DNA of 64,000 nucleotides from positions 1 through 64,000 of IMG/VR virus record IMGVR_UViG_3300027973_000043; one strand, given 5' to 3'. The position numbers and the translations under genes were made by a program. The notes under the pieces are model-generated. The model had not been told where the DNA came from. It saw only the letters and a list, made by a program, of their open reading frames with translations, and made no database searches. This stretch comes from a virus. Below are positions 17,290-26,206 of this stretch, piece after piece; the stretch's first letter is position 1, and each line of letters begins with the position of its first letter.

Positions 17290-18540
17290 ATGAACAGACG
17301 AACCATTCTTCAAGTAGGAGCCGCCGCAGGAATAAATCTTCCTTTTTGGCTCAAAGCCAACGAAACAAAAGCTACGAAAGCAACTAGTGTTATTCACATC
17401 TTTCTTCCTGGTGGAATGGCTCACCAAGATACATGGGACTATAAACCAAATGGTTCTTCTGAATATCGTGGACCTTTTAGTGGAATTAAAACCAAAATAA
17501 GTGATGTTTTCTTTGGTGAATTGTTAAAAGAAACCGCTAAAATTAGTGATAAATTAACAGTCATTAGAAGCATGACTCATGGAGAAGCTGCACATGAACG
17601 AGGAGTTCATAACATGCTCACAGGTTATCGTCCAAGTCCTGCTATTCAATATCCCTCATTTGGAAGCATTGTTTCACATGAATTAGGCGGAAGAAACAAT
17701 TTACCTCCTTATGTTCTTGTGCCAAATCAATTTGCACCAGAAAACGGAACTGGTTATCTTTCAACAAAGTATGGACCGTTTGCACTTGGCAGTAATCCAG
17801 AAAATTCTGATTTCCAAGTAAGAGATTTGAATGTTCCTTTAGGAATTAACGAAGGTCAATTACAGCGTCGTCGTCGTTTTTTAGATATAGTGGATAACCA
17901 TTTCAAGAATATTGAAAAAAGTGATTCTGTTCAAGCAATGGATTCTTTTTATCAAAATGCATTTAATTTAATTTCTTCTTCAGAAGCCAGAGATGCTTTT
18001 GATTTAAATAAAGAAACTACTAAAACAAAAGAAAACTATGGAAACAATTCTGCTGGAATGCGTTTCTTAATGGCGCGTCGTCTCGTAGAAGCAGGAGTTC
18101 GAATGGTAACAGTTAATTATGGTAGCTGGGATCATCACAGTAATTTGAATTCTGCAATGCTTAGTCAAGCACCAAACTTTGACCAAGCATTTTCTGCATT
18201 AATATCTGATTTAAGTGACCGTGGAATGCTAGACAGCACTCTTGTCTTGGTTACAAGTGAGTTTGGAAGAACAAAGATGAACTCTACTTCTGGAAGAGAT
18301 CACTGGCCAAAGGTTTTTAGTGTTGTTATGGCAGGAGGAGGGACAAAACAAGGATTTTCATATGGAAAATCAGATTCTTTGGCTATGGAACCGGACGAAA
18401 ACCCTGTATCTCCACAAGATTTGGCATATACTATGTATTCTCTTATGGGCATTGAACCTGAAAAACAACTAGTTACATCTGATCTTAGACCCATAGATAT
18501 TATTAACGGAGGAACACTATTACGCGATATTATAATCTAA
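17290..18540 (+). CDS. DUF1501-family protein with a Tat-like signal
   Basis: MNRRTILQ; GGMAHQDTWDYKP, ARRLVEAGVR, WDHH, SEFGRT and GRDHWP motifs. Confidence 0.9.
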   Translation: MNRRTILQVGAAAGINLPFWLKANETKATKATSVIHIFLPGGMAHQDTWDYKPNGSSEYRGPFSGIKTKISDVFFGELLKETAKISDKLTVIRSMTHGEAAHERGVHNMLTGYRPSPAIQYPSFGSIVSHELGGRNNLPPYVLVPNQFAPENGTGYLSTKYGPFALGSNPENSDFQVRDLNVPLGINEGQLQRRRRFLDIVDNHFKNIEKSDSVQAMDSFYQNAFNLISSSEARDAFDLNKETTKTKENYGNNSAGMRFLMARRLVEAGVRMVTVNYGSWDHHSNLNSAMLSQAPNFDQAFSALISDLSDRGMLDSTLVLVTSEFGRTKMNSTSGRDHWPKVFSVVMAGGGTKQGFSYGKSDSLAMEPDENPVSPQDLAYTMYSLMGIEPEKQLVTSDLRPIDIINGGTLLRDIII

Positions 18541-19520
18541 CGATCTTTTGTTTCATTCTTTCCAATATGACAATTAATGCATAGAAGTTGACATTTCTTA
18601 ACTTCCTCGTTTATTTCGTCTATAGTTCTATATGATAATTCTTTTATATTTAATTCAAATTTTTTATCATACAAATGGTCAAACGATAGTGTTGCGGTGT
18701 ATTTGGAATTCCAGCCACATTCAGAACAAACATTTCCTAATTGTTCTATAAGAATTTCTTTTATTTGCTGTCCTTTTCTTATTTTTCGTTTATTTTTAGC
18801 GTTTTGGTGCTCAATCACATGACAATTGTGACATAATAGCACACATTTATCTAATTCATTTAATATTTCATTCATTGAATATTTTAATAAGTTACTTTGA
18901 TCTAGAGTAAATTTTTTATCCCTGATATGATGAAAACAATATTTAGATAATTCATCAAAATACGTCTTACATATTTGACAACAACCACCTTTTAACTGTA
19001 CAAGTTCTTTTTTTATATTTATTGCGCGTTCTTTATAAACATGTTTTTTCGGTCTTTTACATTCTCGACAACAAAATATTTGTTTACAAGAACCTTTAAA
19101 ATAATTATCACAACTCTGACATTTTTTAGTGTAAATTTGGGTGTTGTTTTTAGTTCTTACTTCAGAGAGTCTATTATTTCTATGACATTGTTTAGAACAG
19201 AATTTCGATCTTATATGCGACGATACGAAATCCTTTTGACAAGAATCACATTTCTTTGTAAAATTTTTACGTGTTGTACTACATTTAGTGGAGCAAAATA
19301 ATTTACTTTCATGTGGTTTAGTAAAAAATTCGATTGAACAAGTAGGACATTTTTTTGGTATGTTTCTAATTTTATATTCTCCATTACATTTATTACTACA
19401 GAATTTGTTTACACGATCTTTTCTATAATATAATTTTCCCTTAATAGTACTCGATTGATATAAATCCATTTCTTTGTTACAATTTAGACAGTTTGTTTTA
19501 TAACTATGTAGTTCATCCAT
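18537..19520 (-). CDS. Free-standing HNH homing endonuclease (Zn-finger repeats plus two HNH-like domains)
   Basis: Repeated C..C ... FCS..C units; FHH ... LLCHNCH and FDH ... LLCINCH; start reassigned to MDELHSY after TAAGTA. Confidence 0.8.
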   Translation of the reverse strand: MDELHSYKTNCLNCNKEMDLYQSSTIKGKLYYRKDRVNKFCSNKCNGEYKIRNIPKKCPTCSIEFFTKPHESKLFCSTKCSTTRKNFTKKCDSCQKDFVSSHIRSKFCSKQCHRNNRLSEVRTKNNTQIYTKKCQSCDNYFKGSCKQIFCCRECKRPKKHVYKERAINIKKELVQLKGGCCQICKTYFDELSKYCFHHIRDKKFTLDQSNLLKYSMNEILNELDKCVLLCHNCHVIEHQNAKNKRKIRKGQQIKEILIEQLGNVCSECGWNSKYTATLSFDHLYDKKFELNIKELSYRTIDEINEEVKKCQLLCINCHIGKNETKDR

Positions 19521-19555
19521 ATAGTTACTTATTTGGAAGAACTGCAAAAGTAAAA

Positions 19556-19690
19556 ATATCTCCTGAAAATCTTGCAGCAACCATGTATTCTCTTATGGGA
19601 ATAAATTATGAGAAACGCTTAATGACAAGCGATTTACGTCCAGTTGATATTGTAAGAGATGGAAAAATTTTAACTGATATTATAGCTTAA
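19556..19690 (+). pseudogene. Displaced duplicate 3' end of the DUF1501 gene
   Basis: ISPENLAATMYSLMGINYEKRLMTSDLRPVDIVRDGKILTDIIA aligns with the C-terminus of 17290..18540. Confidence 0.85.
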
Positions 19691-19873
19691 AAAGCGATTG
19701 GATCAGTTACTACAATTTCTCCTGTTGATGGACGCATCATAAAATTACCAGAATGTAGATCATATAAATGTGTTTTGTTATTTTTTTTCTAAAAATTTTC
19801 TAAGTCTATAAAAAGTTTTAAAAATTTCAAGATCTCTGTTAACGTTTTGTTCATAAAAATATTTAAAATTCAT
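19687..19873 (-). pseudogene. Internally deleted, frameshifted paralog of the adjacent kinase
   Basis: MNFKYFYE leader joined to YDLHSGNFMMRPSTGEIVVTDPIAF; frame broken at an A8 run. Confidence 0.75.
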
Positions 19874-19904
19874 AAAGTTATTTATATTATACAATATAAT
19901 CCTG

Positions 19905-20651
19905 TTAAGCTACAGGATCAGTTATAACAATTTCTCCTGTTGATGGACGAATCATAAAATTTCCGCTGTGTAGATCAAAAGCACAGTATTTGTGGTTCAT
20001 TTCTAAATACTTAGAAAGTTCATATAGTGCTCTAGCAAGAGGTAGATTATCTTCTATGAAAAACTCTACTCTTCTTAATAAGCGATCATGATGGGATATT
20101 TTTTGTCTAAAATCTTTTTCAGGCGTATCTTGATTCTTTACAACGTAATATTGTTTCATAGAATTTTCGTCTTTTTTAACTTTGTTCATAAAACCATCAA
20201 CCACTGTTTCCAAAGAGCGATTTCCAATAGTGGTAGAAGATAGATAACCTCCGAAAGATAAAGCTAAATTATTTCTCCAATTTGAAAAATTTGCTTTCTT
20301 TAATTTTTCAATTGCTACTAAACCTACATTATCTCCCTTTGGAATAATATCTATTGATTTAACTTTAACAATGTGTGGGTTGTTTTGATGTCTTTCTAAA
20401 AAGCGAAGAAAAGCTAAATAACACTGATCAGTGAACAGTTTCATAACATAGTCTTTTTCTGGATGTTCAAAAACTTTTGCAAAACTACCTGATCCTATTT
20501 CTTTCCAACCATTTGCTTTTAATCGGTCGTAAACCATGTCAAAATCTTCATTATCGTTTATATCTTCAGATGACGAAGAACTAAAATTTGCTGTATTGTA
20601 TTCGTCACTTTCTTTTAAATATCTGTTAATATAAAAATCTTTGAATTTCAT
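19905..20651 (-). CDS. Protein-kinase-like fold protein
   Basis: IGSGSFAKVF Gly-loop, VMK, DLHSGN catalytic loop, TDP; start reassigned to MKFKDFY. Confidence 0.8.
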   Translation of the reverse strand: MKFKDFYINRYLKESDEYNTANFSSSSSEDINDNEDFDMVYDRLKANGWKEIGSGSFAKVFEHPEKDYVMKLFTDQCYLAFLRFLERHQNNPHIVKVKSIDIIPKGDNVGLVAIEKLKKANFSNWRNNLALSFGGYLSSTTIGNRSLETVVDGFMNKVKKDENSMKQYYVVKNQDTPEKDFRQKISHHDRLLRRVEFFIEDNLPLARALYELSKYLEMNHKYCAFDLHSGNFMIRPSTGEIVITDPVA

Positions 20652-20703
20652 AATTATATTTATTAGAACTTGACATAATAGCAGTATAAGAGTAAAGTCA
20701 CCC

Positions 20704-21327
20704 ATGACTATTAACCAAGTTTGGACTGAAAAGTATCGCCCACAAAACATTGAAGACGTTATTTTAAATGACAAAGAAAAAGAGTATTTCTCTTCTCTTA
20801 AAGAAGTTCCAAATAATCTTCTTCTTGTAGGAAGTCCAGGCATCGGGAAGAGTACAATTGCAAAGATTCTTGCTAAAAAGTTTTCACCAAATTCTTACAT
20901 GTATATTAATGCATCTGAACAAGGTAACATTGATACAGTAAGAAACTTGATTAGTGAATTTATATCTGTAATGAGTATTGACGGCAATCAAAAAATTGTT
21001 ATTTTAGATGAATGTTTGGAAGAAAATACTCTAGTTTCAATTCTAAAAGATGGGTCTGAACAAAAAATTCCCATTAAAGATGTTGACCCTGATAATGATT
21101 TGGTGAAGACGTATAATTTCGATTTATCTCGAATTGAATATAGACCGTTTTTTAAGATTGATAAAGGGGTTCAAGAAGTTTATGAAGTAGAATTTGAAAA
21201 CGGAGAGTTTATTGTTTGTACAGAAGATCATAAATGGTACGTAGAAGACTCTATGACAGGAGAAATCACAAGAAAAAAATTAAAAGATATTATTTCTAAT
21301 AATATTTTGGAAATTCTTACAGTTTGA
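20704..21327 (+). CDS. Clamp loader AAA+ subunit (gp44/RFC-like) N-extein fused to the N-part of a split intein
   Basis: WTEKYRP, Walker A GSPGIGKS, VILDE then CLEENTLV (intein block A) ... CTEDHKW (block B); intein part 21013..21324. Confidence 0.92.
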   Translation: MTINQVWTEKYRPQNIEDVILNDKEKEYFSSLKEVPNNLLLVGSPGIGKSTIAKILAKKFSPNSYMYINASEQGNIDTVRNLISEFISVMSIDGNQKIVILDECLEENTLVSILKDGSEQKIPIKDVDPDNDLVKTYNFDLSRIEYRPFFKIDKGVQEVYEVEFENGEFIVCTEDHKWYVEDSMTGEITRKKLKDIISNNILEILTV

Positions 21328-21362
21328 CGGAATATATATACTTGCTCATATAAATAATATAT

Positions 21363-22283
21363 ATGGGCGGAAATACATTACGAAGGCAAAATTATACTAA
21401 AGAAGAAATCGAAAATTTTTATAATTTATATAAAAACAAAAATATAGAATTTTATAACCCTATTACTGGAAAAATATTAAAAAATAAAATAGCTTGGAAA
21501 GCTAGTCTTTCTGTAAAGATGTTTCCTGATTGTCTTCGTTATTTTTTATATCTAGACCATTCACCAGCATATAGTGAATATTCGGGGGAAAGATTGACAT
21601 TTGAAGATTTTAATTTAAAGAGAGGCTTTTGTAGATTTTCTAAAGACGAGATAGATAAGAAAGTATGGACTAAAAACTATATTACTTCTGAAAAAACAAA
21701 ATCTCTTTTATCTAAAAGAATTAAAGAGATTATGGATTCTGAACAGGGTATAGAAATAAGGAAAAAAATGACTGTTTCCCATAAAAAATTCAATAATTCA
21801 GAAAGGGGAAAGCAGATACAAAAAGAAAAAGCTAAAAAACAATCAGATTATCTCAAAAAACAAATATTAGAAGGTAAATTTACACCAAACGTTACAAATA
21901 CATGGACACATTGGAATGCTCAAATTACTATAGATGATAATATTTATAAATTTAGAAGTTCATGGGAAGCGTGCTTTTGGTTCTGTAATCAGCAGTTATT
22001 ATACGAAAACATCAGAATCAGAAACGGAGACCGAGTTTATGTTAATGATTTTTATGATGAAAAAAATAGAATTTTATATGAGATAAAACCAGTATCTCAA
22101 TTTAACAAAGAGATCGAAAAAATAAACACTTTTATAAATTATTGTTTGAGTAATAATATGAAATTTATATGGATAAATGAGAATAATATACATAATTTTT
22201 TAAATATTAATTTAATAAACAATAACGAATCTGCTAAAGAACAATACAAAAAGGTACAAAAATATGCAAAAATTAAGAATTAA
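21363..22283 (+). CDS. Free-standing PD-(D/E)XK-type endonuclease between the intein halves
   Basis: FRSSWE ... YE ... NDFY ... YEIKP; basic NUMOD-like central region; TATAAATA upstream. Confidence 0.7.
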   Translation: MGGNTLRRQNYTKEEIENFYNLYKNKNIEFYNPITGKILKNKIAWKASLSVKMFPDCLRYFLYLDHSPAYSEYSGERLTFEDFNLKRGFCRFSKDEIDKKVWTKNYITSEKTKSLLSKRIKEIMDSEQGIEIRKKMTVSHKKFNNSERGKQIQKEKAKKQSDYLKKQILEGKFTPNVTNTWTHWNAQITIDDNIYKFRSSWEACFWFCNQQLLYENIRIRNGDRVYVNDFYDEKNRILYEIKPVSQFNKEIEKINTFINYCLSNNMKFIWINENNIHNFLNINLINNNESAKEQYKKVQKYAKIKN

Positions 22284-22980
22284 GAATATCAAAAAACTCG
22301 AAACACTATCACATGTATATGATTTGAGTGTAGGCGGAACCCATAATTTTTTCGTCGGACAAACAGGAATTATGACAAGTAATTGTGATGGCATGTCGAT
22401 GACGGCACAGCAAGCTCTTCGTTCAGTTATGGAAGATTATCTTGACTCTGTTAAGTTTATTCTTACAGCAAATTATCGAAACAAACTTATTGAAGCATTA
22501 CGTTCTCGTTGTCAAGAGTTTACTTTTACTTGTTCAGAAAAGCAAGTATTGCAAAGAATCGTAAATATTCTCAAATCTGAGAAAGTTTTGGTTCAAAAAG
22601 AAAATCTTGAGAACATTAGAGGTCTTGTAAAAGATCTTTTCCCTGATATTCGTAAAACAATCAACGAGTTGCAACGATGCTGCATCTCAGGAACATTCAT
22701 TTATAGCAAGCAGTTAGGAAATGATTTTGCCAGAGAGATTAAAGAAAATCTGAAAGAGGGTAAAGACGTTTTCCAGATTCGTCAAAAGATTGTAGATGAA
22801 AGTGACAAGTTCGGAAATGATTATCATAGTCTTATGAAAGACTTGTTCCACTTGTATGTAAGAGAGTGTAATAGTATTGCAAGTATTCTTATCAGCGAGT
22901 ATATGTATCGACATTCTTTTGTAATGGACCCAGAAGTTAATTTCTCTGCACTATTATTCAATTTAAAAAGTAAACTCTGA
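22264..22980 (+). CDS. C-part of the split intein (40 aa) fused to the clamp loader C-extein
   Basis: VYDLSV..THNFF ... TSN|CDG..AQQALR; FILTANY, LRSRC and PDIRKTIN motifs. Confidence 0.92.
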   Translation: MQKLRIKNIKKLETLSHVYDLSVGGTHNFFVGQTGIMTSNCDGMSMTAQQALRSVMEDYLDSVKFILTANYRNKLIEALRSRCQEFTFTCSEKQVLQRIVNILKSEKVLVQKENLENIRGLVKDLFPDIRKTINELQRCCISGTFIYSKQLGNDFAREIKENLKEGKDVFQIRQKIVDESDKFGNDYHSLMKDLFHLYVRECNSIASILISEYMYRHSFVMDPEVNFSALLFNLKSKL

Positions 22981-23024
22981 TTAAAATGAAAGAAAAGAGT
23001 TATTTGGTAAGTATGTTATCAGGT

Positions 23025-24746
23025 ATGCAAAAAATCTTAGTCATTTTAATGTTCTCTCTCTTTTCGGTATCTGCTTTTGCAACAAATGAATTAGACGGCG
23101 TTTTAAGAACTTATTACGTTAAAAATACAGTTAAAGGTAATGCAAAATTAACAGATGAATATACTTGGATTAAACGTGTTTATGTTGATCTGGCAGGAAG
23201 AATTCCTACATATAATGAAATTGATACGTTTATAAAAGATAAAGATTCTCAGAAAAAAGAAAAGACTGTTGATAAAATATTGTTGTCTGAGGATTATGTT
23301 AATAATTATTATAATTTTTGGGCTGATATTTTTCGTATCAGACCTGAAAGACTTGCTGATGATGTAGCACTCTTAAAGTCATATCCTTACATAGATTATG
23401 TAAAATCATTTGTAAGAAACGACAAATCCTACAAAGATTTTGTTTATTCTTTACTTTCTGCGGATGGTAAATTCTCTGACAATGGTGCTGCTGGATATAT
23501 GCTTCGTGACAATGGTATGCCTCTTGACAATCTTGCTACAAGTTTACAGCTTTTTATAGGCAAAGACTTAGCTTGTGCGCAGTGTCACGATGATCCATTT
23601 CAAGACTATACTCAAATGCAGTTTTATCAAATGGCATCTTTTTTTAACTCTTTAGATACAAGAGAAAGAAGAAAAGAATATAATGATATTATTAAAAAAG
23701 TAGATAACGAGATTAAAGAGATTACAAAAAAAGACCGTATAGACAATAATGTTCGTCAATTATTATCAGCAAATCTTTTTAATTTAAAAGATGATGATAA
23801 TAAAACATTAAAACTTCCTCATGATTATAGGTATAAAGATGCAAAACCTTTTGACGTTGTTGAACCAAATACACTTGACAGCAAATTTAAAAGTATAAAA
23901 GAAAATAAAAGAGATGTTGCTTCTAAATGGATTGTTGAACACGAAGACTTTACACACTCTATTTCAAATAGAGTGTGGGCGAATATTGTAGGAAAAGCAC
24001 TTATAGTTCCTGAAACAAACTTTATTTTATCAGATTATCCAGAAGGTGAAGTGTTAACTTTTCTTGGAGATTATTTCAAACAACATAACTACAGCATTAA
24101 AAGTCTTCTTCGTCTTATATCAACCAGTGACTTTTATAACAGAGAAGCATATACTGGAAAAGATGAAAGTTATGCTTATCAATCTATACTTGTAAAAAGA
24201 ATGAATGCATACCAGATTTGGGACAGCATTTTAACTCTTGTAGTTCCTGATGTAAATTATAGTCGTTTTTCTTTTTCTGAATATTCTAATCTTGTAAAAA
24301 TTGATTGGAAAGATATTAATGGAAAATATCTTCTTCAAAAAGTTGAAGACCTTCGAAACTATGATCGTCTAATTAATCAAAAATTTTTAAAATATAAAAA
24401 TATAGATTTGGTGCGTGCATCATATCTTATGAATCGTAACTCTTTTGTAGGTCAATTTTTAAAAGAATATGGCAGTAGTGATCGTGTTCTTATTGACTCA
24501 AGTAATGACAAAGGTAGTATAACACAAGTTTTAACTATTATGAATTCACCAATCGTTGAACTTTTAATAGATAAAAAAAGTCAAATTTATCAAAACTTCT
24601 CAAAAGATAAACAAAAGGACAGCTTGTTTTTAAGTATACTAAGTCGTCCTAGTAAAGTTGACGAAAGAGTAATTTTATCAAAAACTCAAACAGATGATCT
24701 TGTATGGGCTTTGATTAACTCAAGAGAATTTTTATTTAGAAAATAA
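23025..24746 (+). CDS. DUF1549/DUF1553 (PSD1-type) protein with signal peptide and CxxCH
   Basis: KRVYVDLAGRIPT, CAQCHDDPF, NRVWANIVG and DLVWALINSREF motifs; signal peptide ending AFA. Confidence 0.88.
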   Translation: MQKILVILMFSLFSVSAFATNELDGVLRTYYVKNTVKGNAKLTDEYTWIKRVYVDLAGRIPTYNEIDTFIKDKDSQKKEKTVDKILLSEDYVNNYYNFWADIFRIRPERLADDVALLKSYPYIDYVKSFVRNDKSYKDFVYSLLSADGKFSDNGAAGYMLRDNGMPLDNLATSLQLFIGKDLACAQCHDDPFQDYTQMQFYQMASFFNSLDTRERRKEYNDIIKKVDNEIKEITKKDRIDNNVRQLLSANLFNLKDDDNKTLKLPHDYRYKDAKPFDVVEPNTLDSKFKSIKENKRDVASKWIVEHEDFTHSISNRVWANIVGKALIVPETNFILSDYPEGEVLTFLGDYFKQHNYSIKSLLRLISTSDFYNREAYTGKDESYAYQSILVKRMNAYQIWDSILTLVVPDVNYSRFSFSEYSNLVKIDWKDINGKYLLQKVEDLRNYDRLINQKFLKYKNIDLVRASYLMNRNSFVGQFLKEYGSSDRVLIDSSNDKGSITQVLTIMNSPIVELLIDKKSQIYQNFSKDKQKDSLFLSILSRPSKVDERVILSKTQTDDLVWALINSREFLFRK

Positions 24747-24880
24747 TATGGAAGAAATATTAATACTTCAAGAAGAAGAAAACGCAAGAAAAGAAAAAAG
24801 ATTTTACGATTCTATTGTAGCTGCATCAAGTTACATAGAAAATAATAAATCTAAAAATATTGAAGATATAGAACAAAATT

Positions 24881-26173
24881 ATGGAAAAAAACCTCAACCT
24901 CAGTTGCTCTCTTGGTAGAAGAGATTTCATCGAAAAACTCGCATACACAACATTTGGTGTTAGTGTATTAAGTACTCCTTCTTTAGCAGAAAATGTTTCT
25001 TCTGCTTTTTTCGGCAAAGCTAAACACATTATTTACATTTATAACAATGGTGGTATGAGTCATTTAGATTCATTTGATCCTAAAGGTGAAAATGTAATGG
25101 GTGGCGTTAAAAGTGTTCAAACAAGTGGAGACTTTCAAGTTTCTGAATATTTCAAAGAATTAGCAAAGCACGGTGACAAGTTTTCTCTATTAAGAGGAAT
25201 GACATCTAAAACAGGCGCACACTCACAAGGTCAATATCTTATGAGAACTTCTTATAATAAAAACGGTTTAACAATTCACCCTGCAATGGGTGCAATAAGC
25301 TCATATCTATTAGGCAAAAGTCATGATAGCATTCCTGATAATATTCTTATCTCTGGTGATAATGATCATCCAAGAGAAGGTTATCTAGATAAAAAATTTA
25401 CTCCTCTTCCTATTATAAATCCAAACGAAGGACTTCGTTTTAGTAAATTGTCTGTTAGTGAAAGTGGTCTTAACAATAGACTCAGCGTGTTAAATGCTCT
25501 TGACAGAAATTTCCGAGAAGGCTATGGAGTAAAGGATGTTAATTCGTATAATGTTCTTTATGATGAAACTCTTAAACTTTTAAAAAGTGAAGACTTAGAC
25601 TCTTTTGATCTTACCAAAGAAACCCCTGAAAATCGTGACCGTTATGGACGTAGCAACTTTGGTCAAGGTTGCCTTCTTGCTAAACGCTTAATCTCTCGCG
25701 GAGTGCGTTACATAGAGATTGGTGACGGTGGCTGGGACATGCACAATGACATTAGCACAGCAATGACTAACAAAGCAGAATACTATGATAAAGCATTAGC
25801 TTCTCTTTTTAGTGATTTAAGTGAAAGTGGATTATTAAAAGAAACTCTTGTTGTAATTGCAACAGAGTTTGGTAGAACAATAGATTCTAAAAACGAGAAT
25901 AATTTACTTGGTTTAAATAAAAATGAAGGTCGTGACCATCATCCAAGTGCTTTTTCATGCCTAATTGGTGGATGTGGTCTTGGTGGTAAGGTTGTTGGTA
26001 AAACCGACGAGAATGGAAGTAAGGTTGTAGAACGTCCAACTGAAATTGGAGAACTTAATGCAACGATTGGGTATCTTCTTGGGATTAAACATGATCACGT
26101 ATGGATGAGTCCAAGTAACCGACCATTCACAGTTGGTAATAAATCTGAACCTATAAAAGAATTAATAGGATAA
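24881..26173 (+). CDS. Second DUF1501-family protein with a Tat-like signal
   Basis: GRRDFIEK; GGMSHLDSFDPK, GWDMH, TEFGRT and GRDHHP motifs. Confidence 0.9.
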   Translation: MEKNLNLSCSLGRRDFIEKLAYTTFGVSVLSTPSLAENVSSAFFGKAKHIIYIYNNGGMSHLDSFDPKGENVMGGVKSVQTSGDFQVSEYFKELAKHGDKFSLLRGMTSKTGAHSQGQYLMRTSYNKNGLTIHPAMGAISSYLLGKSHDSIPDNILISGDNDHPREGYLDKKFTPLPIINPNEGLRFSKLSVSESGLNNRLSVLNALDRNFREGYGVKDVNSYNVLYDETLKLLKSEDLDSFDLTKETPENRDRYGRSNFGQGCLLAKRLISRGVRYIEIGDGGWDMHNDISTAMTNKAEYYDKALASLFSDLSESGLLKETLVVIATEFGRTIDSKNENNLLGLNKNEGRDHHPSAFSCLIGGCGLGGKVVGKTDENGSKVVERPTEIGELNATIGYLLGIKHDHVWMSPSNRPFTVGNKSEPIKELIG

Positions 26174-26176
26174 AAA

Positions 26177-26206
26177 AGAAAACCCACTCAATTGAGTGGG
26201 TTTTTT
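26177..26206. terminator. Bidirectional intrinsic terminator
   Basis: AAAACCCACTC-AATT-GAGTGGGTTTTTT between convergent genes. Confidence 0.85.

What the first reader, a model, noticed from the sequence alone, without database searches (positions are those of the whole stretch)
17290..26173. Phage-encoded PVC-type envelope module: two Tat-exported DUF1501 proteins plus a DUF1549/DUF1553 CxxCH protein
Seen: two intact, divergent DUF1501 genes with twin-arginine leaders (MNRRTILQ, GRRDFIEK). A signal-peptide DUF1549/1553 gene with CAQCH lies just upstream of the second one. All three are as AT-rich as the flanking phage genes and are interleaved with the clamp loader. Established: DUF1549/1553-DUF1501 pairs are hallmark, expanded, functionally unknown modules of Planctomycetes and Verrucomicrobia. 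Inference: this is a long-resident phage-borne periplasmic system that may remodel the host envelope, scavenge nutrients or exclude superinfection. A homing endonuclease targets the first copy, which implies the gene is conserved among related phages.
Basis: partly seen in the sequence, partly recalled or inferred. Interest (0 to 1): 0.85.

Follow-up and report, generated by a model that had tools for sequence, protein, structure and literature searches.

The report
Phage-borne DUF1501 and PSCyt2/PSD1 exported genes
An uncultured freshwater T4-like phage carries three intact exported genes of a large, functionally unknown bacterial family (two phosphatase/sulfatase-fold enzymes and a haem-motif partner), copied long ago from Verrucomicrobia-type bacteria and shared by many aquatic phages, which gives a small handle on that orphan family.

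Summary
Pfam finds DUF1501 at 17290-18540 and 24881-26173, and PSCyt2+PSD1 (DUF1549/DUF1553) at 22986-24746. The twin-arginine leaders, the signal peptide and CAQCH are all present. The record is a fragment of a T4-like jumbo phage from lakes.

The genes are truly phage-borne. Independent lake assemblies bridge them to phage genes, and 86 other IMG/VR records hold relatives, among them complete genomes. dN/dS is 0.04-0.21. The first copy falls in a viral clade (100/99) beside Verrucomicrobiaceae genes.

New here:
- DUF1501b folds as an alkaline-phosphatase-superfamily enzyme without the sulfatase formylglycine motif.
- The conserved C-terminus of PSD1 is predicted to dock on the enzyme's helical cap (ipSAE 0.80, best control 0.04).
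- The HNH gene is part of a 1152-bp cassette inserted inside the first copy. It supplies a replacement 44-codon tail and leaves the old tail as a remnant. Sister strains lack the cassette.

The function stays inferred. The most likely one is periplasmic ester hydrolysis as an auxiliary metabolic module; envelope remodelling is not excluded.

This scan has noted the phage-borne pair many times on other DNA. My literature searches found no paper describing it.

The parts
17290..18540 (+). DUF1501a: an orphan Tat-leader DUF1501 gene of 416 aa. Its last 44 codons (18409-18540) come from the HNH cassette.
   Evidence: Pfam PF07394 E 5.7e-108. Translation. 58-65% identical to Verrucomicrobiaceae genes. 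Member of a viral clade with support 100/99. dN/dS 0.14-0.21.
18409..19560 (.). Mobile cassette of 1152 bp: a replacement 3' tail for DUF1501a plus an HNH endonuclease gene on the opposite strand.
   Evidence: Contigs of lake runs X5 and X8 join 18408 to 19561 with 2 letters between. Run X3 and the window hold the cassette.
18537..19580 (-). HNH homing-endonuclease ORF, listed as 347 aa from a TTG. The real start is probably further in, because the cassette ends at 19560.
   Evidence: PHROG 2255 E 1.2e-25 and PHROG 3106 E 5.6e-21, both HNH endonuclease. Absent from L005 and L014. A 43% homologue lies right after DUF1501b in L101.
19562..19690 (+). Remnant of the ancestral 3' tail of DUF1501a: 42 codons plus the stop, no longer attached to the gene.
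   Evidence: Translation. It is identical to the C-terminus of the cassette-free alleles P0005 and P0006. It shares 84 of 134 aligned nucleotides with the cassette tail.
20704..22980 (+). Context: a gp44-type clamp-loader gene broken by intein halves, with a free-standing endonuclease ORF (21363-22283) between them. PSCyt2/PSD1 starts 5 nt after it ends.
   Evidence: PHROG 168 on both halves and Pfam Intein_splicing at both junctions. Uninterrupted in L005 and L014. Run X8 skips 21013-22404.
22986..24746 (+). PSCyt2/PSD1 (DUF1549/DUF1553) protein with a Sec-type leader and an invariant CxxCH. The likely start is 23025.
   Evidence: Pfam PF07583 E 3.8e-35 and PF07587 E 5.9e-20. C197, C200, H201 and D202 are invariant in 48 sequences. 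Model pLDDT 86.5 with no clear solved fold. dN/dS 0.13.
24881..26173 (+). DUF1501b: a Tat-leader DUF1501 gene of 430 aa, the predicted partner of the PSCyt2/PSD1 protein.
   Evidence: Pfam PF07394 E 4.7e-91. Model pLDDT 86.6. Alkaline-phosphatase-superfamily fold, Z 19.7. Complex score 0.80 against 0.04 for the best control. dN/dS 0.04-0.14.
26179..26204 (.). Palindromic GC-rich hairpin with T runs, directly after DUF1501b. It looks like a terminator for both convergent units.
   Evidence: Terminator scan, 11-pair stem. This is a consensus match only.

Best explanation
This is a host-derived accessory module of an uncultured freshwater T4-like jumbo phage. Shown: the phage encodes three intact genes of the 'DUF1501 + PSCyt2/PSD1' system known from Planctomycetes and Verrucomicrobia. 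The genes are linked to phage genes in independent assemblies, are conserved under purifying selection, and are shared with many other aquatic phages. Predicted: both DUF1501 proteins leave the cytoplasm folded through Tat, and the CxxCH protein leaves through Sec. DUF1501 is a metal-dependent enzyme of the alkaline-phosphatase superfamily. It lacks the formylglycine motif of classical sulfatases. The conserved C-terminal helix of PSD1 clamps onto the enzyme's helical cap, so the adjacent genes make a two-protein complex. Inferred: during infection the phage supplies its own copy of this periplasmic enzyme-helper pair, plus a second orphan enzyme. These keep up or raise hydrolysis of an organic phospho- or sulfo-ester, which feeds phage replication. 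That would make it an auxiliary metabolic module, comparable in logic to the phosphate-acquisition genes of cyanophages (recalled, not searched for or read here). PSCyt2/PSD1 starts 5 nt after the clamp-loader gene, so it is probably transcribed with the replication genes. Separately, an HNH homing endonuclease has invaded the 3' end of the first DUF1501 gene. Its cassette carries a recoded replacement tail, so the gene stays whole.
For: Family and signals. Phage context: RIIA, ribonucleotide reductase, clamp loader, exonuclease and RNA ligase. The record is an IMG/VR virus of 82,488 b, estimated 31% complete.

Linkage: contigs of three other lake studies bridge phage genes to the module. These are X3 5474 nt, X5 8151 and 47,198 nt, X8 4875 and 16,345 nt.

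Spread: the scan with P0001 gave 12 viral loci. The scan with a DUF1501b alignment matched 131 stretches, of which 89 were relatives and 80 were kept. In 60 of 83 distinct viral records with a full DUF1501 ORF, a PSCyt2/PSD1 ORF lies directly upstream. The module sits in complete genomes with terminal repeats, G002 at 224.7 kb and G024 at 184.5 kb. A T4 portal was found in 13 of 46 records searched. In L007 the module lies next to gp15, the gp20 portal and the prohead protease.

Origin: the best 80 of 595 cellular relatives of DUF1501a are 58-65% identical, and 77 of the 80 titles name Verrucomicrobiota. In the careful tree, 13 viral representatives form one clade (100/99) that is sister to 13 Verrucomicrobiaceae representatives (join 96/91).

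Selection: dN/dS is 0.04-0.21 for the three genes, against 0.14-0.26 for the phage exonuclease.

Fold: VIA Z 19.7 to ENPP6, 19.5 to the phosphatase PafA and 18.5 to choline sulfatase. Foldseek gave 141 matches at E<=0.001, led by LtaS-type enzymes and sulfatases. Fifteen residues, among them D66, K68, H114, D286, H288, R332, D352 and H353, are invariant in 62 of 62 sequences that include both phage copies. No [CS]xPxR motif lies at the active site.

Complex: ipSAE 0.80, 0.80 and 0.77, best of 3 controls 0.04. In the tool's calibration this mark was reached by 58 of 80 solved complexes and 2 of 110 mismatched pairs; those counts hold only roughly, because my own alignments were used. The runs agree in at least 91% of contacts and the partner's pLDDT is at least 88. 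The interface uses the invariant PSD1 residues W574, N578 and E581. No relative of either family has a solved structure by sequence search, so the pass is not a recalled complex.
Against: No substrate is known, and nothing in the window points to phosphorus or sulfur. The fold matches tie between phosphoesterases, sulfatases and lipid-directed enzymes (LtaS, YejM), so the chemistry is open.

A plain hydrolase model does not explain why the partner keeps an invariant CxxCH.

The pair can be lost. L004 (203.8 kb, 96% complete) is 98.5% identical to L003 but has a 2607-bp deletion that fuses the start of PSCyt2 to the end of DUF1501b. Seven of 10 records of the window's own lineage lack DUF1501a.

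The window's DUF1501a lacks a proline codon in the EFGRTPK motif that is otherwise nearly invariant, so its activity may be altered.

The host is unknown. The nearest cellular genes come from genomes of about 60% GC, while the phage has 30%.

The RNA evidence is weak. Contigs of one lake metatranscriptome lie on all three genes, but DNA can be present in such libraries.

Cellular sampling for the trees was limited to the best 80 hits and to 301 Verrucomicrobiota genomes, so the donor is not settled.
Confidence: 0.5

Rival explanations
1. Envelope remodelling or superinfection exclusion. The exported enzymes modify a lipid-linked or cell-wall phosphodiester of the host envelope, as LtaS, EptA-type and YejM-type members of the same superfamily act on or bind envelope lipids. 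That would change receptors or envelope stability during infection.
For: The top Foldseek matches of DUF1501b are the lipoteichoic-acid synthases LtaS and LtaP (E 1.8e-07 to 5e-06) and YejM. The profile's only PDB sequence match below E 0.01 is LtaS-type. Weak NCBIfam hits to YejM and LtaS point the same way. In 15 of 44 long cellular loci the DUF1501a orthologue follows a PPIC rotamase, a D-Ala-D-Ala carboxypeptidase (Peptidase_S11) and a membrane protein. In 4 of 44 it lies beside ftsQ, ftsA and ftsZ.
Against: The phage proteins have cleavable-looking leaders and no membrane anchor, unlike LtaS, EptA and YejM. On the second look NPP-, PafA- and sulfatase-type soluble hydrolases score as high or higher. 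Cellular genomes hold 35 to 75 or more paralogues each, which fits substrate diversity better than one envelope target. The neighbourhood holds in a minority of loci of one family.
Confidence: 0.2
2. Redox module. The CxxCH protein is a true c-type cytochrome that passes electrons to or from the DUF1501 partner, and the phage uses the pair to sustain host periplasmic electron transfer. This is the hypothesis of Kamneva et al. 2012 for the bacterial module.
For: CxxCH followed by D is invariant in 48 of 48 aligned PSCyt2/PSD1 proteins. The Sec-type leader fits periplasmic haem attachment. The passages read of PMC3542564 propose electron transport, and PMC2754498 suggests a role in redox reactions for a PSD1/PSC2 protein.
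Against: DUF1501 has a hydrolase or transferase fold with no redox cofactor site that I could recognise. The predicted interface uses the PSD1 C-terminus, far in the sequence from the CxxCH. Haem binding was not tested here and has not been shown in any paper I found.
Confidence: 0.12
3. Artefact or fresh passenger. The genes are host DNA joined to phage DNA by misassembly, or a very recent uptake with no function in the phage.
For: The nearest named relatives are cellular. DUF1501a and DUF1501b have 5-7 points more GC than the window.
Against: The same gene order occurs in separate assemblies from other studies and in other IMG/VR records. The module sits in complete terminally redundant genomes. 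Identity to any cellular gene is at most 65% for DUF1501a and, among the 301 Verrucomicrobiota genomes searched, at most 45% for DUF1501b. GC is 29-37% against about 60% in the cellular loci. dN/dS is well below 1.
Confidence: 0.02

Closest known systems
The 'DUF1501 + PSCyt1/PSCyt2/PSD1' conserved genetic module of Planctomycetes, Verrucomicrobia and Lentisphaerae (Kamneva et al. 2012, PMC3542564; He et al. 2017, PMC5615132; passages read)
   Same: The Pfam families are the same. The gene order is the same: a PSCyt2/PSD1 gene directly upstream of a DUF1501 gene. DUF1501 has a twin-arginine leader and the partner has a signal peptide and CxxCH. Orphan DUF1501 genes without a PSCyt partner also occur in the bacterial genomes.
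   Different: The module is carried by phages, not cells. It is single-copy and minimal: no PSCyt1, carbohydrate-binding, Big_2 or WD40 domains were found by Pfam. GC has drifted to about 30-37%. One copy has been invaded by a homing-endonuclease cassette. The function is unknown in both settings.
Alkaline-phosphatase superfamily hydrolases: NPP/ENPP phosphodiesterases, PafA-type phosphatases, type I sulfatases and LtaS
   Same: The core fold is shared (VIA Z 17-20 over about 245-290 aligned residues). There is an acidic residue at the end of the first strand and paired Asp/His motifs. The helix-strand segment before the sulfatase 'DHG' motif aligns to the DUF1501 segment before 'EFGRT'.
   Different: Sequence identity is only 10-14%. 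There is no [CS]xPxR formylglycine motif. E-F stands where sulfatases have D-H. The nucleophile could not be assigned: position 108 is Thr or Ser in 54 of 62 sequences.
Phage auxiliary metabolic genes for nutrient acquisition, such as pstS and phoA of marine cyanophages (recalled, not searched for or read here)
   Same: These are host-derived, periplasm-directed genes kept by aquatic T4-like phages under purifying selection. They are dispensable in some strains.
   Different: The families differ and the substrate is unknown. Here there is a two-protein complex plus an orphan paralogue, and no link to a phosphate regulon was seen.
Free-standing homing endonucleases of T4-like phages, such as the Seg and Mob families (recalled, not searched for or read here)
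   Same: An HNH-family gene sits beside or within a conserved phage gene. It is present in some near-identical strains and absent from others, with a precise joint.
   Different: The cassette lies inside the coding sequence and supplies a diverged substitute for the last 44 codons, leaving the old tail downstream. Cleavage and the target site were not tested.

Membership tests
DUF1501 (Pfam PF07394) | Full-length match to the family model above the gathering score | tested here: met
   362 bits and 306 bits against a cut-off of 27, covering model positions 1-390 of 390 in both proteins. The own-record search gave the same two places.
DUF1501 (Pfam PF07394) | N-terminal twin-arginine (Tat) leader | tested here: inconclusive
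   An RR motif followed by a hydrophobic stretch is present in both proteins, and R13/R14 are invariant in 62 of 62 sequences. This was read by eye. No Tat predictor was available and NCBIfam gave no signal model hit.
PSCyt2 (PF07583) + PSD1 (PF07587) | Both domain models above the gathering score, in the order PSCyt2 then PSD1 | tested here: met
   122.2 bits (cut-off 29.8) at residues 43-224 and 72.1 bits (cut-off 28.5) at residues 314-565.
PSCyt2 (PF07583) + PSD1 (PF07587) | Conserved CxxCH motif, and covalent haem if it is a cytochrome | tested here: inconclusive
   The motif is invariant in 48 of 48 sequences. Haem attachment cannot be tested with these tools.
PVC DUF1501 + PSCyt/PSD1 module (Kamneva 2012) | A PSCyt/PSD1 gene adjacent to a DUF1501 gene on the same strand | tested here: met
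   A gap of 134 nt in the window. The same order holds in 60 of 83 viral records and in the cellular loci L053, L061 and L066.
PVC DUF1501 + PSCyt/PSD1 module (Kamneva 2012) | PSCyt1 domain in the partner (present in the larger architectures) | tested here: not met
   No PSCyt1 (PF07635) hit at E<=0.01. The phage protein has the minimal PSCyt2/PSD1 architecture.
PVC DUF1501 + PSCyt/PSD1 module (Kamneva 2012) | The two proteins act together physically | tested here: inconclusive
   The prediction supports binding but does not show it: ipSAE 0.80 against 0.04 for the best control. The tool's calibration counts for that mark are 58 of 80 solved complexes and 2 of 110 mismatched pairs.
Type I (formylglycine) sulfatase | [CS]xPxR motif after the first strand | tested here: not met
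   Absent from P0001 and P0003. It is found in only 6 of 62 aligned sequences, and there only near the C-terminus.
NPP/alkaline-phosphatase-type bimetallo phosphoesterase | Thr/Ser nucleophile plus Asp/His ligands for two metals | tested here: inconclusive
   The fold match is Z 19.7-18.8. D66, D286, H288, D352 and H353 are invariant. Position 108 is Thr or Ser in 54 of 62 sequences. No residue-level superposition was available.
Free-standing HNH homing endonuclease | HNH nuclease family, and a gene that is present or absent between otherwise near-identical genomes at a precise joint | tested here: met
   PHROG HNH families at E 1.2e-25. Runs X5 and X8 join 18408 to 19561, while X3 and the window hold the insert.
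Free-standing HNH homing endonuclease | Cleaves the insert-free allele near the insertion site | not testable with these tools
   This needs an in vitro cleavage assay.
T4-like phage | T4-type replication and structural genes | tested here: inconclusive
   RIIA, gp44-type clamp loader, exonuclease, ribonucleotide reductase and RNA ligase are present. The T4 portal was not found in the 82-kb fragment. It is present in 13 of 46 related records.

The most novel reading that the evidence does not exclude
The phage pair is a working minimal form of the PVC system. In this reading the conserved PSD1 C-terminal motif is the universal docking handle for DUF1501 enzymes. The enzymes are Tat-exported metal-dependent phosphoesterases that free phosphate from dissolved organic esters, and the CxxCH domain tunes or senses that activity. 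If so, dozens of aquatic phage lineages boost their hosts' nutrient scavenging with it. A dedicated HNH lineage would also home into DUF1501 genes by swapping their 3' tails, seen in DUF1501a here and in DUF1501b in L101.
Probability: 0.2. Interest if true: 0.75.

Novelty: new variant of a known kind. Interest (0 to 1): 0.55.

Why it matters
DUF1501 and PSCyt/PSD1 proteins are among the largest orphan families of Planctomycetes and Verrucomicrobia. Five Verrucomicrobiota genomes searched here each hold 35 to 75 or more DUF1501 copies, and no function or structure is known. A phage that keeps one pair and one orphan copy offers a single-copy, compact, selected version to express and assay. The predicted docking of the PSD1 tail on the enzyme cap gives a concrete, testable model for the whole family. 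The module is on at least 86 other viral records from lakes and oceans, so it may be a common but overlooked auxiliary function of phages of PVC-type bacteria. The tail-replacing HNH cassette is a tidy natural example of how a homing element can enter a coding sequence without killing the gene.

Tried and rejected
Searches that gave nothing.
- GenBank phage genomes (INPHARED, 50,697 records), by tblastn with P0001, P0002 and P0003: no match.
- PDB by sequence: no relative of either family. The DUF1501 profile gave only marginal superfamily matches.
- Foldseek of the PSCyt2/PSD1 model against PDB: nothing at E<=0.001.
- The wide VIA search gave a best Z of 5.2-4.8 to phycobilisome linker domains, about 120 residues aligned. 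A Pfam PBS_linker hit at E 0.0099 points the same way. That Z is below the level the tool calls meaningful for helical proteins, so I make no claim of kinship.
- Promoter scan: 63 sites against 53.6 +/- 8.6 expected, so not informative.
- NCBIfam: no useful names.

Ideas dropped.
- I proposed that the missing proline codon in EFGRTPK marks immunity to the HNH enzyme. Alleles P0005-P0007 have the deletion together with the ancestral tail, so the two features are not linked.
- I tested whether the 482-aa ORF upstream of the cellular DUF1501a orthologue is a hidden PSD1-type partner. It has no Pfam hit and its sequence shows no PSD1-like C-terminus.
- PhoH is present in 4 of 4 near-complete relatives but not in the window's own fragment. 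It is common in aquatic phages (recalled), so it says nothing about phosphorus here.

Limits on the read-laying result.
- Parts of the stretch without RNA contigs in run X14 prove nothing.
- Depth from contigs was not used to rank genes.

Things I could not do or see.
Figures S13/S14 of PMC3542564 and Text S1 / Fig. S7 of PMC5615132 may bear on architectures and on any viral members.

Literature. Three full-text searches found 12, 6 and 10 papers. None describes these families in a phage. The one phage paper, PMC5418858, lists a weak CDD hit for a 61-aa protein. BFVD does hold one UniProt entry auto-named 'DUF1501 domain-containing protein [uncultured Caudovirales phage]', so the presence is in databases even if it is not discussed.

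Not used: the search of protein representatives and the protein-atlas search.

Full report
**What is there.**
The window is the first 64 kb of an IMG/VR virus record of 82,488 b, linear and estimated 31% complete. It has about 30% GC throughout.

Its genes include RIIA, class I ribonucleotide reductase, a gp44-type clamp loader, an exonuclease and an RNA ligase. It is therefore a fragment of a T4-like phage of roughly 250 kb. The runs that hold it are lake and freshwater metagenomes from 12 studies.

- 17290-18540 is DUF1501 (E 5.7e-108).
- 22986-24746 is PSCyt2/DUF1549 (E 3.8e-35) plus PSD1/DUF1553 (E 5.9e-20).
- 24881-26173 is DUF1501 (E 4.7e-91).

The leaders MNRRTILQ and GRRDFIEK and the motif CAQCH are present. 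The PSCyt2/PSD1 gene probably starts at M14 (23025). That gives a short, typical Sec-type leader. I call the two enzymes DUF1501a and DUF1501b; they are 31% identical.

**Is it really part of the phage?**
Yes, on four grounds.
- Contigs from three other lake studies bridge upstream phage genes to DUF1501a. They also bridge the clamp loader through PSCyt2/PSD1 into DUF1501b.
- The same order (exonuclease, small ORFs, DUF1501a, clamp loader, PSCyt2/PSD1, DUF1501b) recurs in L005 and L014 at 69-94% protein identity.
- A second lineage at about 41% GC has DUF1501a, a flavodoxin-like ORF, PSCyt2/PSD1 and DUF1501b directly upstream of gp15, the gp20 portal and the prohead protease. That lineage includes a complete 224.7-kb genome with terminal repeats.
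- The three genes have 29-37% GC, against about 60% in the cellular loci.

**How widespread?**
A scan of IMG/VR with P0001 gave 12 loci. A scan with an alignment of DUF1501b relatives matched 131 stretches, of which 89 were relatives and 80 were kept. After removing loci from the same contig there are 86 other viral records.
- 83 of the 87 records, counting the window, have a full DUF1501 ORF.
- In 60 of those 83 a PSCyt2/PSD1 ORF lies directly upstream. Three more (L006, L115, L116) fail only because my ORF caller chose an early start.
- 16 of the 83 have two DUF1501 genes within the flanks.
- A T4-type portal was found in 13 of 46 records searched, and in 4 of the 11 that are at least 90% complete. 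Several phage types therefore carry the module.

GenBank phage genomes gave no match.

**Origin and residence.**
For DUF1501a, the best 80 of 595 confirmed cellular relatives are 58-65% identical. Of those 80 titles, 77 name Verrucomicrobiota, mostly Prosthecobacter, Brevifollis and other Verrucomicrobiaceae.

A careful tree was built from 36 rows: 16 viral and 16 cellular DUF1501a-type representatives and 4 outgroups. These were chosen from 99 representatives clustered at 92% (viral) or 85% (cellular) identity.
- 13 viral representatives from three gene contexts form one clade (100/99).
- That clade is sister to 13 Verrucomicrobiaceae representatives (100/99), and the two join at 96/91.
- Three other viral DUF1501a-type genes (L012, L138, L169) lie outside. 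L138 groups with two cellular genes (99/96).

For DUF1501b, the window's group is a clade of 8 viral representatives (support 100 in FastTree). Two other viral clades have 21 and 17 representatives. Cellular clades lie between them on an unresolved backbone. The best identity to any of 301 Verrucomicrobiota genomes is 45%.

dN/dS is 0.14-0.21 for DUF1501a, 0.13-0.16 for PSCyt2/PSD1 and 0.04-0.14 for DUF1501b, against 0.14-0.26 for the exonuclease. These results support long residence and several transfers, including phage-to-phage transfer. They do not identify the donor.

**What the proteins look like.**
DUF1501b was modelled at mean pLDDT 86.6. Foldseek found 141 solved chains at E<=0.001, led by LtaS/LtaP, sulfatases and YejM. 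A second look by VIA-align gave these scores:

| Match | Z | Aligned residues | rmsd |
|---|---|---|---|
| ENPP6 | 19.7 | 248 | 4.0 Å |
| phosphatase PafA | 19.5 | 283 | 4.4 Å |
| choline sulfatase | 18.5 | 243 | 3.1 Å |

These values are effectively tied. The fold is the alkaline-phosphatase superfamily, and the subclass is open.

Fifteen residues are invariant in 62 of 62 aligned DUF1501a- and DUF1501b-type sequences. They include D66, K68, H114, D286, H288, R332, N346, D352 and H353. The formylglycine motif of sulfatases is absent. In profile alignments, E-F-G of the EFGRT motif stands where sulfatases have D-H-G.

PSCyt2/PSD1 was modelled at pLDDT 86.5. It is almost all helical and has no convincing solved relative.

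**Do they bind?**
The one complex job paired residues 33-586 of PSCyt2/PSD1 with residues 37-430 of DUF1501b, each with its own alignment.
- ipSAE was 0.80, 0.80 and 0.77, and the best of 3 controls was 0.04.
- In the tool's calibration this mark was reached by 58 of 80 solved complexes and 2 of 110 mismatched pairs. Those counts hold only roughly, because my own alignments were used.
- The runs agree in at least 91% of contacts, and the partner's pLDDT is at least 88.

The model supports binding; it does not show it. The interface joins the last helices of PSD1 to two long helices (about 185-233) that cap the enzyme. The PSD1 residues are 560-586, with the invariant W574, N578 and E581, plus 484-524 and 388-405.

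No related complex or structure exists by sequence search. DUF1501a keeps the equivalent cap residues, an Arg and a Phe that are conserved in 57 and 59 of 62 sequences. It could use the same or a host partner, but that was not tested.

**Cellular context.**
Five Verrucomicrobiota genomes hold 35 to 75 or more DUF1501 matches each. The DUF1501a orthologue there is a conserved orphan.
- In 15 of 44 long loci it follows a rotamase, a Peptidase_S11 carboxypeptidase and a 482-aa membrane protein with no PSD1 features.
- In 3 of 54 loci a PSCyt2/PSD1-DUF1501b-type pair (33% and 44% identical to the phage's) lies 4 kb upstream.
- In 4 of 44 loci ftsQ, ftsA and ftsZ are next to it.

This is the only hint of an envelope role, and it is weak.

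**The homing endonuclease.**
Runs X5 and X8 hold strains about 98-99% identical to the window in which position 18408 is joined to 19561 with 2 letters between. Run X3 and the window hold the 1152 bp in between. The insert begins inside DUF1501a, after codon 373.

It carries a substitute for the last 44 codons (18409-18540) and the HNH gene on the other strand. The original tail survives as an unattached remnant at 19562-19690. That remnant is identical to the C-terminus of the cassette-free alleles P0005 and P0006. The two tails share 28 of 43 residues by my count, and 84 of 134 aligned nucleotides.

In L101 a 43% identical HNH gene follows DUF1501b directly. Its ORF ends in a short stretch that resembles the DUF1501b C-terminus. 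This suggests the same trick at the other paralogue, but the match is only about eight residues long.

A proline codon that is missing from the window's EFGRTPK motif also occurs in cassette-free alleles, so it is not tied to the cassette.

**Dispensability.**
L004 comes from a record of 203.8 kb that is 96% complete. It is 98.5% identical to L003 across the flanks. It has lost 2607 bp, which fuses the first 50 or so codons of PSCyt2/PSD1 to the last 85 or so of DUF1501b.

In the window's own lineage (window, L005, L014, L096, L098, L101-L104 and L158), only the window, L005 and L014 carry DUF1501a. The module is therefore accessory.

**Expression.**
Contigs of 279-674 nt at 99% identity or more, from one lake metatranscriptome, lie on DUF1501a, on PSCyt2/PSD1 (three contigs) and on DUF1501b (two contigs). 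DNA can be present in such libraries, so this is only a hint. PSCyt2/PSD1 starts 5 nt after the clamp-loader gene. A strong hairpin follows DUF1501b.

**Comparison with what is known.**
The bacterial module and its unknown function are described in PMC3542564 and PMC5615132 (passages read). PMC2754498 mentions a PSD1/PSC2 gene beside a stress-induced ECF sigma factor (passage read).

Three full-text searches found no paper that describes these families in phages. One UniProt viral entry is auto-named DUF1501.

Earlier agents of this scan have reported the phage-borne pair many times: 152 notes in at least 107 genomes. One of these concerns a freshwater T4-like phage with three genes (e1-6111114). 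My independent checks agree with their general reading.

For this window I add four things:
- the tail-replacing HNH cassette with strain-level proof of its mobility;
- the careful tree for the orphan copy;
- the natural deletion in L004;
- the predicted PSD1-tail to enzyme-cap interface.

**Verdict.**
It is unproven on function.

My best reading is an exported enzyme-helper pair plus an orphan enzyme, used as an auxiliary metabolic module (confidence about 0.5). Envelope remodelling (0.2) and a redox role (0.12) are the live rivals.

Noticed in passing
window 20704-22980: The clamp-loader gene is broken by intein halves, with a free-standing endonuclease ORF (21363-22283) between them. Lake run X8 holds a strain that joins 21012 to 22405 with 21 other letters between, which is an uninterrupted clamp loader. 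X3 and X5 hold the interrupted form. L101 has the same interrupted layout (clampN, endonuclease at 51% identity, clampC).
   Followed up: partly
window 19692-19762 and 19907-19977: A 71-nt direct repeat at 85% identity duplicates the 3' end of the kinase-like gene (19905-20843, minus strand). It sits right next to the DUF1501a tail remnant. Runs X3, X5 and X8 all have 525 other letters between 19830 and 19846. A second tail-replacing insertion therefore seems to have hit the convergent neighbour, and its cargo is missing from the window.
   Followed up: partly
L004 12372-12800 (IMGVR_UViG_3300023174_000047): A natural 2607-bp deletion relative to the 98.5% identical L003 makes an in-frame fusion of the PSCyt2/PSD1 signal peptide and N-terminus to the last 85 or so residues of DUF1501b. 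DUF1501a stays intact.
   Followed up: yes
L007 11558-12376 and its relatives L003, L004, L006: In the 41%-GC lineage a 272-aa ORF with a weak flavodoxin-like match lies between DUF1501a and PSCyt2/PSD1 and is conserved with them. The match is FMN_red at E 6.5e-05 and 23 bits, below the cut-off of 24. It might be a redox partner or an unrelated phage gene.
   Followed up: no
window 18262-18282 (DUF1501a residues 324-331): The window's allele and its closest relatives (P0004-P0008) lack the proline of the EFGRTPK motif, which every other aligned viral and cellular sequence has. Strains in runs X5 and X8 have the codon.
   Followed up: partly
L053 6370-7818 and 18 other cellular loci: The cellular DUF1501a orthologue is usually preceded by a poorly conserved ORF of about 480 aa. 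That ORF has a zinc-ribbon-like N-terminus, a long low-complexity linker, one membrane helix and a C-terminal domain with no Pfam match. In 15 of 44 loci a D-Ala-D-Ala carboxypeptidase and a PPIC rotamase lie before it.
   Followed up: partly
L170, L172 (viral contigs): Two viral records have the reverse order: a distant DUF1501 (33-35% identical) followed by a much larger PSCyt-type ORF of about 900-1100 aa. One of them (G039) is classed as a provirus by IMG/VR, so these may be cellular or prophage regions.
   Followed up: no
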